Shown: piece by piece, positions 30,001-36,000 of the stretch | How positions within the stretch are numbered: the stretch's first letter is position 1 | How the letters are laid out: every line of letters starts with the position of its first letter | NCBI GenBank assembly: GCA_030615175.1 | Contig: JAUWZX010000001.1 | Span: 567,042-631,041, forward strand | Length of the DNA: 64,000 nt | Direction of reading: 5' to 3' | Source of the DNA: Candidatus Parvarchaeota archaeon | Lineage (GTDB): Archaea > Nanobdellota > Nanobdellia > WJKC01 | Position numbers: made by a program

Positions 30001-33000
30001 GTTTAACTTATTCGTAAGCGAGTTCCCAATTTACGCTTTATCATATGAAATTAATCCATTGCTTACTGGATTCCTGCTCTTAACTTCATTAATAGTGCTG
30101 CTTAATTATGTAAAAATACTTTTGCCGGCTTATTATAATTCAAGGATTAAGGAATCCAGTGCTGCCAGGAAGTTCATTACTTACGCTTTAAGCGCTACCT
30201 GCCTGTTATTAGGCGTTATCCCTCAATTAGAATTAACCTTATTCGAGGCTTTATCATGAAATCAGGTAAGCAGGAGTTATACGTTGGAGGCGAGAAGCCT
30301 GATTTAAAGGAGCAGTCATTCAGCATTGTAATCTACTTAAAGCAGTTAATAAAGGACCTGGTGAGGCGAAGATGAACTCATTATATACTCAAGGGGGTTG
30401 CTCAAGGGGGCTTGCCCCCGAGAAGGACCTGGTGAGGCGAAGATGATTAGGAAGTCGCCGTGGGTTACTTTTTATGATATTGGAGGATGCAACGGGTGCA
30501 CGCTTGAATGGAATGCCGCTATAAGCCCTGTCTACGACCTTGAACGCTTCGGCATTAAATTAGTTGACAGCCCTAAGCATGCTGACATAGTAATAATTGC
30601 CGGCACAATAACCACTCAGTCACTTGAAAGCCTTAGGAGAATATTAAAGAATACTCCTAAGCCGAGAAAAATAATTGCTCTTGGCTCGTGCGCTATTTCA
30701 GGAGGATTATTCAAGCAGTCATATAATTCAAAAGGTCCTCTAGACCATTTAGTGAATGTTGACATGTACATTCCTGGCTGCCCTCCAAAGCCTGAAGCAA
30801 TCATTCACGGCTTGCTGAAAGCACTCGGGAGGAAGGAATGAAAGAGTTTTCAGAAAGAGTAAAGAAGCATAAAGGAGAGAGATTAATTTCAATAGTCTGC
30901 ACTGACATGCCTAATAGTTTTGAATTAAAATACTTCTTTGATGATAAAGGCGTTGTGTCAGTAGATGAGTTCAGGATTCCTAAGAAGAGACCTGTCATTC
31001 ATTCAATTATTAAATCATTCCCTGTTGCATCCTTTTACGAAAGAGAGATATTTGAAGGCTTTGGAGTTAAGTTCAGGGGTCATGAATTAAAGAAATTATT
31101 CCTTGCTGATAATTTTGAAACAAAATACCCTATGCGGAGGTATGATTAAATGCATAATCTTAAATTCCCTATTGGACCGCAGCATCCGGGAGTTAAGGAG
31201 CCTATTTACTTGAAAGTGTTTGCTGAAGGCGACACTGTTACAAAGGCTGAGTTCAGAGGAGGGTACGTTCACAGGGGGATGGAGAAATTAATGGAAGGGC
31301 AGGAAACTATTACTGCAATGCATAGTGCTGAAAAGATTTGCGGTATTTGCAGTTATGCTCATAATTCATGCCTTACTAATGCGATTGAAGGCATTCTAAG
31401 GATTAACCCTTCATTAAGCGTTAAGATGACTCGCAACGTTATCGGCGAACTTGAGAGGATTCATTCTCACTTAATGTGGCTTGGATTCTTATTCCATGAT
31501 GCTGGATTCGACACTTTATTCATGTATTACTGGCGTGAGAGGGAGAAAGTATTGGAATTATTTGAAAAGATTACCGGGCAGAGAGTTCACCACGCTATTA
31601 ACTTCATTGGCACGACAAAGATTAATATCAGCGAGTCTGACAAGTTATGGATTAATAAGACTCTTAGAGGCATTAAAGAAAAAGTGAATGATTATTATAA
31701 GGATTTAATTAATAATTCAGTGATTAAGGAAAGATTCAGTGGAGTGGGATTCATCAGTAAGGATTACGCATCACTCTATAATACTGTTGGCCCGACTGCT
31801 CGCGCGTCAGGCATTCAATGGGATACAAGGCTTACTGGTTATTCAGGATTTAATGAATTAAGTTTTGAAGCAATAACTAGCAGGGATTGTGATGTTTACG
31901 CCAGGACTATTGTCAGAATTAAAGAGATTACTGAATCAATTAATATTATTGAACAAGCATTGGAGAAGATTACTAAGCCAGCGCCTGCGTGGAAGGAAAC
32001 ATGGATTAAGAGGGGTGAGGGTTACGCGCGCGTTGAAGCTCCTCGCGGAGAATTATTTTATTACATTTCTGTTAAGAAGAATCATTTGCTGCGCGTCAAG
32101 GTTAAGACGCCTACTTTTAATAATTTCCCAGTACTGCTTAAAATACTTGAAGGCGAGAAGTTGTCTAATATTCCATTAATTGTTGCAAGCATTGACCCGT
32201 GCATTAGTTGCATGGAGCGCTTACTATTAGTTAAGGATGGGAGGAGTAATATTCTTTCAAAGCATGAATTCCTGAGGAGGTATTGCGGTCATGGGCATTA
32301 AGTTAGTGTTAACAGCTCTTCCAGTTGCAGTATTACTTGAAGGCGTCAGGCGCAAGTTAATGGCTCGCTTTCAGGGCAGGAAGGGTCCTCCAGTCATCCA
32401 GCCTTTCTATGATTTAATCAAGTTATTCAATAAAGAAAGGACTGAGGCAAGCGAGAGCAGGAACTTGATTTTCTATGCAGCGCCAGTAATTAGTCTTGCA
32501 ATAATGATTTTTAATTATTTAATACTCTTCGGAGTGCTTGGTTTTAATTATGATTTCGTGTTATTCATTTACTTATTCACTACTGCAGGCGTGATATTAA
32601 TTATTGGTTCATTGTCAAGCAAGTCGCCATTGTCATTCGTTGGCGGCGTGAGAGAGATTCTTTACTTAATTGCTTATGAAGTTATTTTCATCTTCACTGC
32701 CCTGAATCTTATTTCAAAGTCAGGTGAGTTAATGCTATCAAATTATAATAATGCAGGATTATTTATTGCTCCTGTTTCATCAGTGCTATTATTAATTGCT
32801 GGTTTCGCTATTCTGAAAGTAACTCCTTTTGACTCGCCTGCAGCGAGTGCTGAGATTAGTTCATCAATGACTGCTGAGTATAGCGGCAAGTTATTATTCG
32901 CTTATGAGTTAGCTGACTTCTTTAAGAATGGCTTGTTCTACTTTACTGCTGCAATATTATTGTTCGGCAGGAATACTTATTCATTAATCTTTATTCCTGC

Positions 33001-36000
33001 ATTACTGCTGTTCTATGCTTTAATGAATGCTACAACGCCTCGCTATTCTTTCATTAGGAGTACAAGTCACTTATTATTCATTGCTTTATTATCAATTATT
33101 AGTGGTGGTCTCGGTGTTTGAAATCATTAAGGAAGCGCTTAAGCATTTATTCAGTAAGCCTGACACTATTAATTACCCGTTAAGTAAGCGTGAAGTAGGA
33201 CATGAATTCAGGGGCAGGCACGTGTTCATGGAGGAGCGCTGCACTGCTTGCGGTTTATGCGAGGAGCGGTGCCCGAGCCAGTGCATTAAGTTATTAGAGG
33301 ATGAGAAGCGCATAATCATTGACCTTGACGCTTGCATGTTCTGCGGTTTATGCAGGGATGTCTGCCCTGTTGATGCAATCCAATTCAGCGATGAATACGA
33401 ACTCGCAACCAGTAATAAGGAAGAATTATTCGTTGATTAAAGTACTTGAAGAAGGGTTTAATAATAATTCATTAATCATTACTGCTTCCTCTTCACTGAC
33501 TTTCTTAATGACTAAGTCATTGAATGTTATTACATAATCATCTTCTTTTAATTCCATTGTAGTCCCGCATTCCTTCCTGCCGTAAGGGCTTAGAATAGTA
33601 ACTGAGTCACCATTAACTTTCAGCACTTTGCCAGGCACGCCAATGCACATTGAATTATTAAGAAACTGTTTCAGTATATAAATTATCAGATTCGCTTTTA
33701 ACTAATTTTTTAATGAACGCGTTAATCCTGTACTCCCAATCCCGATAATTATCCCTCATCTTCTTGCGCTCCTCCTTGGTTTTTTCTTTATTATTAAAGA
33801 ACATGGTTAGTGCCTTATCATCAGCAACTAATTTATCCTTCCATTTATAAGAATTTAATGCTTCCTCAAGCTCGTCGTACCCTATTTCACCATCAATAAT
33901 CTTCTTTTTTAACAATGTTCTTTTAGGAATCATGCGTTCGGTTAATTTCTTAGAGCTATAATTAATTGATTTACCTCCAAGCAAGCCAGCACCTGCAAGA
34001 CCAAGCTCCCAAAGATAGAATTCAAGTGTTGTTATTGTACCCGTATTCATTTTTAAACCAAAAAAGTACACTTCCGCGTTAGCCAGGTTAGGCCATACTC
34101 CGAACAAGTCAGGAATCGGCCTGCCCATTATAGGATACCATATAGTGTCATGTATGAAGAATGCAAGCCCTATAGACCCAGCAAGATAAAAAGCTTTTCT
34201 TGCAAAGTCAACAGGATTCTTAGGCTTACTGCCTACCAGGAAAGCAATGCCAACAGTTGTTGGCAGGAATAAATTAAGATAATGAACTGGACTGATTAAT
34301 TCATGACCATCAACTATTTTTTGCCCAAGAGTGAATAATATCTGGTCAACTGACAGGCTTGACAGCAAAAAAGCTGCAGTGCCGCCAGCAAGATAAGGCA
34401 TGGCTTTCCTTAAATTACTCTTCTTTTTTTCAGGCTTGTATATCCCTGGTTTATCAAGCACTTCAACCATGTGCTCCATCAGGGTTGCGTACTCTCCTTC
34501 AAATTTAACGGTTTTATTAGTGAAATCAACAGTTTCTTCATTAAGCATGGATTCTAATTTTTTACTGACCATAACTTAATCCCTATTGAGAGAGGATATT
34601 TAAGATTTATTGCAATAGAGAAAAATATTTATTCTTGATTGCCTCTTCACTTGACAATATGAGTTTGGAAAAATTGTTAGATTCAGGGATTAAATTATTA
34701 TTATTCGGCGGTAAAGGAGGTGTTGGCAAGACAACGTGCGCGGTTGCCTGCGGGTTCTACGCTGCTAAGAATAAAGGTCTTAAAACGCTTGTAATATCAA
34801 CTGACCCTGCTCACTCGCTCACTGACTCGCTTGACATGCCATATGATAAAGGAATAATAACCAGGGTAATTGATAACTTCTATGCCATACAGTTAGACCC
34901 GCAAAAGAGTTTATGGGACCAGTCATACTTCATGAACCTTCAGATGATTAAGATGTCAATGAATCCTTCATTAAATGAAGCTTACGTGAATTCATCATTA
35001 ATAACTGAAGATAAGATTAAGGAATTAATGGATGAGTTCAGGGATATTGATTTAATCACAATCACTTATTCATTAATCCTTAATAAAGGAGAAATTGATA
35101 ATGCAAAGAAATTAATAAAATACGCTGACAGTAAAGCCGATGAACTTGCTGAAAAAATTAATAATCCTAATTATAAGAGGAATCATGCCATGGCAACCTT
35201 AATCATGTCTGGAGAGGATTATTCCACTGCAGAAGAAATCAGCAAGGATATCCTTAAGTGCATGCCAATAAACTGTAAGGACTTCTCATTAACTCCAGGG
35301 CAAATGGAGAGGCACTCTTTCAACGTGATTTACTCAATGACTAAATCAATTGATTCAGGTAAAGCGGATTATGACCTTGTTATTATAGACACGGCTCCAA
35401 CAGGGCATACTCTTGAAATGCTTTCTCAGGCGCATTTGCTGCGGGATGAAGATGGTTATAGATGGATGATGAAGACTCTTCTTCCTGTTTCATGGACAAT
35501 AATGAAGACTGTTAGGGGCGTGAAAGTAGTTAATAAATTCTTTAAGCGATTACTTGGCAGGGATTCTAAAAAAACAATAGATAAAATACCAGGATTAAGA
35601 GAGCAGTATAAACAATTAAAAGTTCTTGCAGAGGAATTCGCTCCTGTAATGGACTGGTTTTCTGATTGCACGAAAAGTTATTTCATACCAGTAGTGATAC
35701 CAACTGAAATGGCTTTTGAGGAAACACTTGACTTGGTGGGAAGGTTAAGTGAATTTGAATTAGGTTGTTATAAACTCATGGCTCCAAAATCCTATTATGA
35801 TAAAAGCATAGGAGAGCATGATTCCTTAAAGTTATTCCATAAGGATTATCCAAGGTATATTATCATGAACTCCCTGCTCTGTAATGAAACAATTGATATA
35901 ATGAAGAGGATAGGAGTCAAGGAATTACCCTCTGAGGACTGCGGGTTCTGCCGGATGCAGGTTTCAGAACATGAATCCATGCTTAAAAAAGTACTTGATT

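What a model noticed while it worked through the whole genome (the two positions that open the first line are those of the whole stretch)
30398..33650. Membrane-bound [NiFe] hydrogenase core with intact metal ligands in a lineage that has no HypD or HypF
Five adjacent genes encode the MbhJ/K/L/M/N-type core of a group-4 membrane-bound [NiFe] hydrogenase; the large subunit keeps both Cys-x-x-Cys nickel-iron motifs and a C-terminal extension, and a HycI-type endopeptidase and a HypC lie next to the operon, yet the genome has no HypD, HypF, antiporter-like (Mrp/NuoL) subunit or ATP synthase. In a sample of 201 genomes of the class none has a HypD or a full HypF, although at least three other genomes from two more families carry a large subunit with the same intact ligands. 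I propose that these tiny archaea run a ferredoxin-driven H2-evolving 'mini-Mbh' whose Fe(CN)2CO cofactor is made without the canonical HypCDEF route, either by an unknown pa [...]
Evidence so far: g01051 (Oxidored_q6, 50% to P. furiosus MbhJ), g01052 (Complex1_30kDa), g01053 (NiFeSe_Hases/Complex1_49kDa, 34% to MbhL, 33% to E. coli HycE), g01054 (NADHdh), g01055 (2x4Fe-4S), g01056 HypC, g01044 HycI. Large-subunit sequence shows the N-terminal and C-terminal Cys pairs and about 25 residues after the last motif. Six-frame family searches of the own genome: HypD 0, zf-HYPF 0, ATP-synt_ab 0, Proton_antipo_M 0, each found in 4-14 of 14 control genomes. Class sample of 201 genomes: Complex1_49kDa over cut-off in 30 (22 of 27 in one family, none in the 3 closest relatives); of five of these inspected, G051, G010 and G027 (two families) keep both Cys-x-x-Cys motifs and a C-terminal extension, [...]
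(Added by a program. Inside this text positions count along the whole contig: contig position 567,042 is position 1 of the stretch shown here. "Call 12" and the like, gene names such as g00115 and contig names such as C1 are that model's own, and its searches are not shown. The text may have been shortened before it was handed on; [...] marks where a part breaks off. The agent that wrote the report below was given it as the finding of a first reader that could run no searches.)

Follow-up and report, generated by a model that had tools for sequence, protein, structure and literature searches.

The report
Mini membrane hydrogenase without HypD/E/F
This tiny archaeon encodes an intact, stripped-down membrane nickel-iron hydrogenase but none of the HypD, HypE or HypF proteins thought indispensable for building its metal centre; it carries instead a permease and an unstudied HypC-like protein that likely import and hand over the iron-cyanide-carbonyl unit by an undescribed route.

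Summary
The core observation holds; two details do not. The operon has seven genes, not five: a half-size MbhH-like antiporter subunit and a 39-aa MbhI-like ORF precede mbhJKLMN. The large subunit keeps both Cys pairs and a cleavable tail. HypA, B, D, E, F, HydG and ATP synthase were not found in a genome whose four main contigs appear to close into one circle. The class is not HypD-free (4 of 401), and the puzzle is large: 38 of 41 [NiFe]-bearing genomes lack HypD.

The likely answer lies 340 kb away: an EamA permease plus a short DUF6390-like protein (HypC fold, two conserved Cys, two His). Of 42 class genomes with it, 41 have a [NiFe] large subunit and none has HypD. In relatives it sits directly beside this group-4 operon. 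Three other HypD-less genomes carry HydG plus a HypC-HydE fusion instead.

Cofactor import is inferred, not shown. Not found in print in my searches. Testable in cultured actinobacteria.

The parts
29609..30259 (+). Half-size antiporter-like membrane subunit (C-terminal half of MbhH/MrpD), 216 aa, about 6 TM; first gene of the operon
   Evidence: MbhH 278-466, E 0.012; NF006240, E 6e-11, under cut-off; TM count; orthologues of 235-333 aa before mbhJ in G049 and G320 and in metagenome loci
30256..30375 (+). 39-aa ORF with a Y-x-G-G-E motif, likely a remnant of MbhI/NuoA (label recalled, no family hit)
   Evidence: no Pfam hit; same position and motif in G049 and G320 and in L221, L222, L226, L240
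30352..30446 (.). Strain-level 71-bp insertion: G+C-rich hairpin repeat between two identical 24-nt direct repeats that duplicate the mbhJ ribosome site and start; both neighbouring ORFs stay open
   Evidence: repeat; hairpin core at four other places in the genome; a contig of run X2 skips the 71 bases; contigs of X1 and X3 span them
30443..30841 (+). MbhJ-type small subunit with the [4Fe-4S] Cys motifs CNGC, GSC and PGCPP
   Evidence: Oxidored_q6, E 2e-31
30838..31149 (+). MbhK/NuoC-like subunit
   Evidence: Complex1_30kDa, E 3e-15
31150..32301 (+). Group-4 [NiFe] large subunit: C64/C67, C351/C354, EAPRG, PT, R357 plus a 26-aa tail; the only [NiFe] large subunit in the genome
32291..33121 (+). 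MbhM/NuoH-like membrane anchor
   Evidence: (NADHdh, E 4e-39)
33114..33440 (+). MbhN/NuoI-like 2x[4Fe-4S] subunit
33426..33650 (-). HypC that keeps Cys2 but lacks the His conserved in HypC of HypD-bearing genomes
   Evidence: (39.5 bits, cut-off 28.5)
25613..26020 (-). HycI-type maturation endopeptidase; its end overlaps the start of porA
   Evidence: TIGR00072 over cut-off
23039..25629 (-). 2-oxoacid:ferredoxin oxidoreductase, alpha/gamma and beta genes; likely source of reduced ferredoxin

Best explanation
The operon encodes an intact seven-gene membrane-anchored group-4 [NiFe] hydrogenase in a genome where HypA, B, D, E and F were not found, and an unlinked EamA permease plus a DUF6390-like HypC-fold protein (G000:C5:256576-258007) likely stand in for HypD/E/F by importing a ready-made iron-CO/CN unit and passing it to the enzyme. 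Steps: (1) SHOWN in sequence: all [NiFe] and Fe-S ligands, the cleavable tail, HycI, a HypC with Cys2 but no His, and the EamA + DUF6390-like pair. (2) SHOWN as a pattern: this pair occurs with HypD-less [NiFe] hydrogenases of group 3 and group 4 and is almost mutually exclusive with HypD in the class. (3) INFERRED: EamA takes up an Fe(CN)x(CO) complex released by a host or neighbours; the DUF6390-like protein holds it on Cys16/His87/Cys104/His145, much as HypC Cys2 and HypD Cys41 do; HypC Cys2 relays it into the large subunit; nickel enters without HypA/B; HycI cuts after R357. (4) INFERRED: the mature enzyme reoxidises ferredoxin from 2-oxoacid:ferredoxin oxidoreductase and evolves H2, letting the cell make ATP through ADP-forming acetyl-CoA synthetase. 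With half an antiporter subunit and no ATP synthase it is mainly an electron sink; ion pumping is uncertain.
For: Ligands and tail; 119 of 120 closest homologues keep both Cys pairs and 119 have a tail of 5 or more residues. Purifying selection on the large subunit, HypC, DUF6390-like and EamA genes (pN 0.15-0.35 against pS 0.59-0.75, six pairs). Absence unlikely to be a binning gap: C1, C2, C3 and C5 join through two two-copy repeats into a probable 963-kb circle; a single-contig, 100%-complete genome (G094) has the same lack. G000 gene: profile hit E 2e-7, next to an EamA 43% identical to the EamA beside DUF6390 in G094; confident model (pLDDT 95.9) whose C-terminal domain best matches HypC. 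In 124 short homologues His87 and His145 are invariant, Cys16 115, Cys104 118. Class sample: 42 of 401 genomes have a full-length hit (38 strong, 4 weak); 41 of 42 have a [NiFe] large subunit and 0 of 42 have HypD; 0 of 40 genomes of family f19, whose large subunits lack the ligands (22 of 22 loci), have it. 7 of 8 genomes with an intact group-4 enzyme have it, and that enzyme is their only [NiFe] client. It lies between hypC and hycI next to the operon in G022 and G049 and beside it in 4 of 80 metagenome loci. The three closest relatives of G000 lack both hydrogenase and gene; in genus g5, G022 has both and G002 neither. HypC lacks the His in 21 of 21 copies beside the gene and keeps it in 3 of 3 HypD operons. 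Beyond the class: 54 of 71 DUF6390 loci hold a large subunit, 59 an EamA; 42 of 50 such genomes lack HypD. No ligand-synthesising enzyme recurs among the families I scored in these loci. HypC carries the synthon on Cys2 (PMC11565642, PMC8692609; passages). Ferredoxin, acetyl-CoA synthetase and IscS/IscU-like genes are present.
Against: No activity, metal, transport or expression data. The imported species is a guess; two Cys and two His would also suit nickel or zinc. Free Fe-CN-CO complexes have no known environmental pool (own knowledge). EamA is not always adjacent: 18 of 30 class loci within 1.5 kb, and absent beside the gene in G022 and G049. DUF6390 also sits inside canonical hypCDEF operons in 7 of 71 loci, all Actinomycetota, so it is not strictly a HypD substitute; a few Thermoplasmata HypC beside DUF6390 keep the His. 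G007 has an intact group-4 enzyme and no replacement found (110 contigs). G378 has DUF6390 plus a shortened HydG-like gene. The G000 protein does not reach Pfam DUF6390, and the N-terminal link between short and long forms is weak (5 of 70 at E<1e-3). Genomes are kin and mostly bins; ligands were read in only 25 of the 41 large subunits. G000 is rated 87% complete and one repeat interior is unassembled.
Confidence: 0.48

Rival explanations
1. Alternative synthesis: the DUF6390-like protein is a one-chain mini-scaffold that assembles Fe(CN)2CO itself from small imported precursors (cyanide, thiocyanate, CO or carbamoyl phosphate) brought in by EamA.
For: It unites a HypC fold with an extra Cys/His pair, like HypC plus the HypD site. 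Cultured free-living actinobacteria carry the module without HypD, HypF or HydG, and they would have no host. HydG plus HypC-HydE in three genomes shows that other synthesis routes are plausible.
Against: No Fe-S, ATPase or radical-SAM partner recurs among the families scored. The protein also occurs beside complete hypCDEF operons, where a second synthase would be redundant.
Confidence: 0.22
2. Different metal centre: the large subunit binds a centre without the standard Fe(CN)2CO unit, and may catalyse something other than H2 turnover; DUF6390 and HypC insert plain Fe or Ni.
For: No route to CN or CO is visible in G000.
Against: EAPRG and PT, which line the CN/CO pocket (recalled), are kept in 118 and 115 of 120 homologues, though ligand-less NuoD-like proteins keep similar motifs. 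The same module serves unrelated group-3 and group-4 enzymes, which would need two parallel active-site changes.
Confidence: 0.13
3. Nickel module: EamA imports nickel and the DUF6390-like protein is a nickel chaperone replacing HypA/HypB; the iron unit comes from a still unseen source.
For: G000 lacks HypA and HypB; 2 Cys + 2 His suits nickel; DUF6390 coexists with HypD/E in 7 of 71 loci.
Against: HypA lies in 23 of 71 DUF6390 loci; the exclusion is with HypD; the fold is that of the iron carrier HypC; it leaves the CN/CO problem open.
Confidence: 0.1
4. Artefact or relic: the hyp genes are missing from the bin, or the operon is a decaying recent acquisition.
For: 87% completeness; the three closest relatives lack the operon; an insertion sits inside it.
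Against: Near-closed contig graph; 38 of 41 [NiFe]-bearing class genomes lack HypD, one of them a single complete contig; purifying selection; all ORFs open; the insertion is polymorphic and spares both genes.
Confidence: 0.07

Closest known systems
Pyrococcus furiosus Mbh (group 4d; PDB 6cfw)
   Same: J/K/L/M/N core, Cys ligands, Arg cleavage site, an MbhH-like subunit.
   Different: Only the C-terminal half of MbhH, a 39-aa MbhI-like remnant, no MbhA-G sodium module, no ATP synthase, no HypD/E/F. The 14-subunit make-up of Mbh is recalled.
E. coli formate hydrogenlyase Hyc (HycE, PDB 7z0s) and Ech/Eha/Ehb energy-converting hydrogenases
   Same: Best sequence match of the large subunit; minimal core with a NuoH-like anchor.
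   Different: No fused NuoC domain, no full-length antiporter subunit. Their hosts use the six Hyp proteins (PMC3087415, passage). More distant bacterial-type relatives at 38-41% identity mostly keep one or two full antiporter subunits of 500-680 aa.
HypC-HypD scaffold with HypE/HypF (E. coli; T. kodakarensis, PDB 3vyr, 2z1c)
   Same: HypC with Cys2; a HypC-fold domain with the equivalent Cys and His in the DUF6390-like protein; endopeptidase step.
   Different: HypD, E, F, A and B not found; HypC lacks the conserved His; an extra helical domain with Cys and His; a dedicated EamA permease.
DUF6390 (Pfam PF19927)
   Same: Order of motifs, two Cys and two His, HypC-like C-terminus, EamA neighbour.
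   Different: 172 aa against about 240 aa, not detected by the Pfam model; client is a group-4 membrane enzyme; gene unlinked from the operon.
CPR group-3b-related hydrogenases with 'fam002' (Jaffe et al. 2020, PMC7304191)
   Same: A neighbouring family with partial HypC homology was noted (passage).
   Different: The passages I saw do not discuss missing HypD/E/F, DUF6390 or EamA; supplements not read.
Maturase-less archaeal [FeFe] hydrogenases (Greening et al. 2024, PMC11216029)
   Same: The same puzzle for the other hydrogenase class: enzymes in DPANN without known maturases, alternative pathway proposed (passages).
   Different: Concerns the H-cluster; no replacement genes named in those passages. 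G000 has no [FeFe] hydrogenase.

Membership tests
Group 4 [NiFe] hydrogenase | N-terminal CxxC and C-terminal DPCxxC nickel-iron ligands | tested here: met
   C64/C67, C351/C354
Group 4 [NiFe] hydrogenase | Small subunit with one [4Fe-4S] Cys set, plus NuoC-, NuoI- and NuoH-like subunits | tested here: met
Group 4 [NiFe] hydrogenase | Full-length antiporter-like (NuoL/M/N, MrpD) subunit | tested here: not met
   only a 216-aa C-terminal half; no match to three full-length antiporter queries
Group 4 [NiFe] hydrogenase | C-terminal extension and cognate endopeptidase | tested here: met
   26 aa after R357; HycI
Group 4 [NiFe] hydrogenase | NiFe(CN)2CO centre and H2 evolution from ferredoxin | not testable with these tools
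   needs infrared spectroscopy and assays
Mbh proper (Thermococcales) | MbhA-G sodium module and full MbhH in the operon | tested here: not met
   genes upstream of 29609 are a bPH_2 protein and a PolX
Ligand-less NuoD/Ehr/Mbx-like complexes | Loss of the Cys ligands and of the tail | tested here: not met
   ligands kept here, unlike 22 of 22 f19 loci and G303
Canonical HypCDEF maturation | HypD, HypE and HypF present | tested here: not met
Canonical HypCDEF maturation | HypA and HypB nickel chaperones | tested here: not met
Canonical HypCDEF maturation | HypC with both Cys2 and the conserved His | tested here: not met
   Cys2 kept, His absent
HydG/HypC-HydE route | HydG and a HypC-HydE fusion | tested here: not met
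DUF6390 (PF19927), for G000:C5:257489-258007 | Score over the Pfam cut-off | tested here: not met
DUF6390 (PF19927), for G000:C5:257489-258007 | Common descent with the long form outside the HypC domain | tested here: inconclusive
   short-only profile hits 47 of 70 long forms at E<1e-5 with collinear pieces; N-terminal part alone 5 of 70 at E<1e-3; shared EamA neighbour
HypC/HupF fold, for the DUF6390-like protein | OB-fold with Cys before strand 1 and His after strand 4 | tested here: met
   top Foldseek and VIA-align matches are HypC (E 2e-4; Z 7.7, rmsd 2.0, 68 aligned); Cys104, His145

The most novel reading that the evidence does not exclude
Hydrogenase cofactor salvage: many small archaea and bacteria do not build the Fe(CN)2CO unit but import it through a dedicated EamA permease and load it with a DUF6390/His-less-HypC relay that serves soluble group-3 and membrane group-4 enzymes alike. 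With HypCDEF and HydG/HypC-HydE this gives three nearly exclusive maturation routes, which account for 48 to 50 of the 51 [NiFe]-bearing genomes seen in this class. The client here is a seven-subunit minimal energy-converting hydrogenase with half an antiporter.
Probability: 0.45. Interest if true: 0.92.

Novelty: categorically new. Interest (0 to 1): 0.8.

Why it matters
[NiFe] maturation is described as needing at least six Hyp proteins (PMC11565642, PMC3087415; passages). Here most [NiFe]-bearing genomes of a large DPANN class lack HypD, and a conserved two-gene module fills the gap. The class 'categorically new' refers to that maturation route, whichever of import or alternative synthesis proves right; the enzyme itself is a streamlined variant of known group-4 hydrogenases. 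This locus adds that the module is not tied to group-3 enzymes: it is kept in genomes whose only client is a membrane group-4 complex. That argues for a general cofactor role. If true, it bears on whether DPANN and CPR hydrogenases are active, suggests a way to mature hydrogenases with two or three small genes, and offers a seven-gene model of the complex-I-like core. Two cultured actinobacteria carry the module without HypD or HypF, so it can be tested now.

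Tried and rejected
Complex prediction of the DUF6390-like protein with HypC: no verdict (score 0.02); not used either way. 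Single-sequence fold of the N-terminal domain: poor model (pLDDT 53.5), not searched, so that domain's fold is untested. Carbamoyl-phosphate synthase as a discriminator: not found in G000 or in 35 of 43 module-bearing genomes, but also in 0 of 4 HypD genomes, so uninformative. Profile comparison A2 against A4 is circular, as A2 contains A4's sequences; replaced. Pfam DUF6390 search of G000: nothing. Expression: no RNA holder listed. The ArsA-like ATPase pair beside hypC as a HypB substitute: no match in 23 related loci, rejected. Radical-SAM genes of G000 as HydG/HydE: no HydG match. The 104-aa ORF near the G007 operon as a DUF6390-like gene: no profile hit. Protein atlas: clusters with partial HypC and DUF6390 labels, recognition under the tool's mark, lead only. 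A printed role for the HypC His: His45 is named as a conserved residue of the HypCD cavity; its essentiality is recalled, and a search of PMC4161419 found nothing. Literature searches that found no description of the module: (DUF6390: 0 papers); the library lacks most subscription papers. Precedent for a half-size antiporter subunit in Eha: not confirmed in the passages seen.

Full report
THE LOCUS. ORF listing and family scans confirm five core genes at 30443-33440(+): small subunit, NuoC-like, large subunit, NuoH-like anchor and a 2x[4Fe-4S] subunit. The large subunit's best solved relatives are HycE and MbhL. It keeps C64/C67, C351/C354, the Arg cleavage site and a 26-residue tail. Of its 120 best database homologues, 119 keep both Cys pairs; the named ones at the top are Aenigmarchaeota, Micrarchaeota, Diapherotrites and Nanoarchaeota. 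I infer from these names, and, that the window comes from a Nanoarchaeota-type DPANN archaeon.

TWO MISSED GENES. ORF 29609-30259 aligns to MbhH residues 278-466 and to an MrpD-like model under its cut-off. A 39-aa ORF with a YxGGE motif follows (MbhI-like; label recalled). Both recur before mbhJ in G049 and G320. In 80 metagenome loci, eight close relatives that I take as complete (L221-L223, L225, L226, L240, L255, L277) have one short antiporter-like ORF of 234-318 aa; four more short ORFs in distant, high-G+C loci may be cut by the locus end and were not examined; most distant relatives have subunits of 500-680 aa. So this is a conserved seven-gene design. A 71-bp hairpin insertion duplicates the mbhJ start; one contig of run X2 lacks it and contigs of X1 and X3 have it, so it is a strain-level event that spares both genes. 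hycI overlaps the start of a 2-oxoacid:ferredoxin oxidoreductase operon. A ferredoxin, an ADP-forming acetyl-CoA synthetase (491.7 bits, under the 567 cut-off) and IscS/IscU-like genes are present (the IscU label is by eye). ATP synthase was not found.

WHAT IS MISSING. HypD, HypF, HypE, HypA, HypB and HydG were not found. tblastn with HypD, E, F and A from class relatives gave only one weak HypF-part match. The genome is rated 86.9% complete, but C1 and C5 share their first and last 141 bases, as do C2 and C3; C1/C5 ends overlap C2/C3 starts by 22 nt, and the other ends fall in what reads as one duplicated membrane-protein gene. I infer a 963-kb circle with one short repeat interior unassembled; C4 (52 kb) stands apart.

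THE CLASS. In 401 sampled genomes the large-subunit query hit 73. I set aside 30 of family f19 (ligand-less in 22 of 22 loci, and in G114; 7 not read), G303 (ligand-less) and G054 (no PF00374 match). That leaves 41: 8 group-4 and 33 group-3-like. Ligands were read in 25 of the 41 and were intact wherever covered. HypD is in 4 of 401, three of them among the 41. So 38 of 41 lack HypD, including single-contig G094.

THE REPLACEMENT. Beside hypC and hycI in these loci lies a 150-275-aa unknown protein. Long forms are Pfam DUF6390; short forms escape Pfam. A profile found the G000 member at C5:257489-258007 (E 2e-7), adjacent to an EamA gene 43% identical to the one beside DUF6390 in G094. Its model is confident and its C-terminal domain has the HypC fold. 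Two His are invariant and two Cys nearly so in 124 short homologues; a like set holds in 69 long ones. The family has 661 representatives at E<=1e-10, a count that may include some plain HypC. In the class, 42 genomes have a full-length hit; 41 have a [NiFe] large subunit (ten of these were found only by searching chosen genomes) and none has HypD. Among the 41 genomes found without that bias: 32 DUF6390-like, 2 with a divergent ORF in the same position (G205, G043), 3 HypD, 3 HydG with a HypC-HydE fusion (G045, G326, G340; no [FeFe] hydrogenase), 1 none (G007). The hits span about 24 families and families f17 and f65 contain two routes, but kin are not independent and I ran no tree-corrected test. 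HypC lacks the conserved His in 21 of 21 copies beside the gene and has it in 3 of 3 HypD operons. For group 4: 7 of 8 genomes have the gene, the group-4 enzyme is their only [NiFe] client, and in G022, G049 and 4 of 80 metagenome loci it flanks the operon.

OTHER PHYLA. A scan of species genomes gave 71 long-form loci in Nanoarchaeota, Thermoplasmata, Patescibacteria, Actinomycetota and others: 54 with a large subunit, 59 with EamA, 23 with HypA, 7 with HypD and HypE. Fifty of the 71 genomes were searched whole: 8 have HypD (one of the eight, G414, is unpublished, and this count rests partly on it). None of the 7 loci with HypD has an EamA. The cultured Demequina litoralis and Intrasporangium sp. 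DVR have the full module and no HypD, HypF or HydG found; HypE was not searched there.

MECHANISM. In the canonical route the Fe(CN)2CO unit is held by HypC Cys2 and HypD Cys41, and HypC delivers it (PMC11565642, PMC8692609; passages). The DUF6390-like protein has the HypC Cys and His plus a second Cys/His pair, while the free HypC keeps only Cys2. No ligand-making enzyme recurs among the families I scored, but a conserved permease does. I therefore favour import and relay (0.48) over synthesis from simple precursors (0.22), a different metal centre (0.13), a nickel module (0.10) and artefact (0.07). Against it: no biochemical data, EamA adjacent in only 18 of 30 class loci, coexistence with HypD/E in Actinomycetota, one genome with no route found, and weak N-terminal homology between short and long forms.

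WHAT IS KNOWN. Seen as passages only: Jaffe 2020 (PMC7304191) notes a partly HypC-like family beside CPR hydrogenases; Huang 2021 (PMC8421398) reports group-3b enzymes in Woesearchaeota, with no mention of 'maturation' in the main text; Greening 2024 (PMC11216029) poses the same puzzle for [FeFe] enzymes; PMC10134863 mentions one [NiFe]-bearing Parvarchaeales genome; PMC3087415 lists the six Hyp proteins. Supplements were not read; those of Jaffe and Greening may bear on novelty. Searches found no description of the module. I reached both modules from my own calls (22-81) before looking at the scan's notes, which report the DUF6390 module (11 findings) and the HydG/HypC-HydE route (55 findings) on other DNA; these are unchecked AI notes and not support. 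Two look-ups for a group-4 client found nothing.

VERDICT. Real, conserved, and larger than first read. The enzyme is a streamlined group-4 variant; its maturation route has no described counterpart that I could find. Interest 0.8.

Noticed in passing
L198:8383-11450 (G045), L199:5356-8040 (G326), L212:1498-4180 (G340): His-less HypC fused to a HydE-like radical-SAM protein, followed by HydG over its cut-off and, in G045, by hycI next to a group-3 [NiFe] hydrogenase; no HypD, DUF6390 or [FeFe] hydrogenase found. A second candidate maturation route.
   Followed up: partly
window 30376-30422; also G000 C1:35200-35226, C3:13593-13621, C5:206061-206079, C5:294820-294847: A small G+C-rich hairpin repeat in at least five intergenic places; here inserted with a 24-nt duplication and polymorphic among strains. 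Possibly a miniature mobile element.
   Followed up: partly
L013-L034, L047, L048 (family f19): A ligand-less NuoA/B/C/D/H/I-like operon in 30 of 40 genomes of one family, with no antiporter subunit seen beside it in L047 and L048 and no DUF6390; substrate unknown.
   Followed up: no
L180:2818-8771 and six other Actinomycetota loci (L176, L177, L183, L184, L190, L197): DUF6390 at canonical hyp operons with HypD and HypE and no EamA; in L180 the order is hypC-(hypF-size ORF)-hypC-hypD-hypE-DUF6390. Could be the carrier or donor side of the same system.
   Followed up: partly
window 34635-37257: Two adjacent, divergent ArsA/GET3-like ATPases with large insertions, unusual for so small a genome.
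   Followed up: no
G000 contig C4 (52 kb): Does not join the other four contigs; starts with an MCM-like ORF and carries many membrane and large secreted-type ORFs (by eye). Possibly an archaeal plasmid or virus.
   Followed up: no
L045:7022-10078 (G037): An even smaller group-4 operon (K-L-J-N-M) with intact ligands and no antiporter-like gene seen in the 19-kb locus.
   Followed up: no
L043 and L204 (G007): Intact group-4 operon with two long membrane subunits, HypA and an Mrp-type ATPase, but no HypD, DUF6390-like gene or HydG found; unexplained (110 contigs).
   Followed up: partly
L215:1507-2757 (G378), L216:1462-2841 (G234): Stand-alone HydG-like genes with no HydE or HypC next to them.
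   Followed up: no
G221, G260, G360, G399: The four HypD-positive genomes have no carbamoyl-phosphate synthase small chain found, so their cyanide precursor source is also open; G260 also had no zf-HYPF match.
   Followed up: no
window 27332-29026: PolX-PHP family DNA polymerase just upstream of the operon.
   Followed up: no
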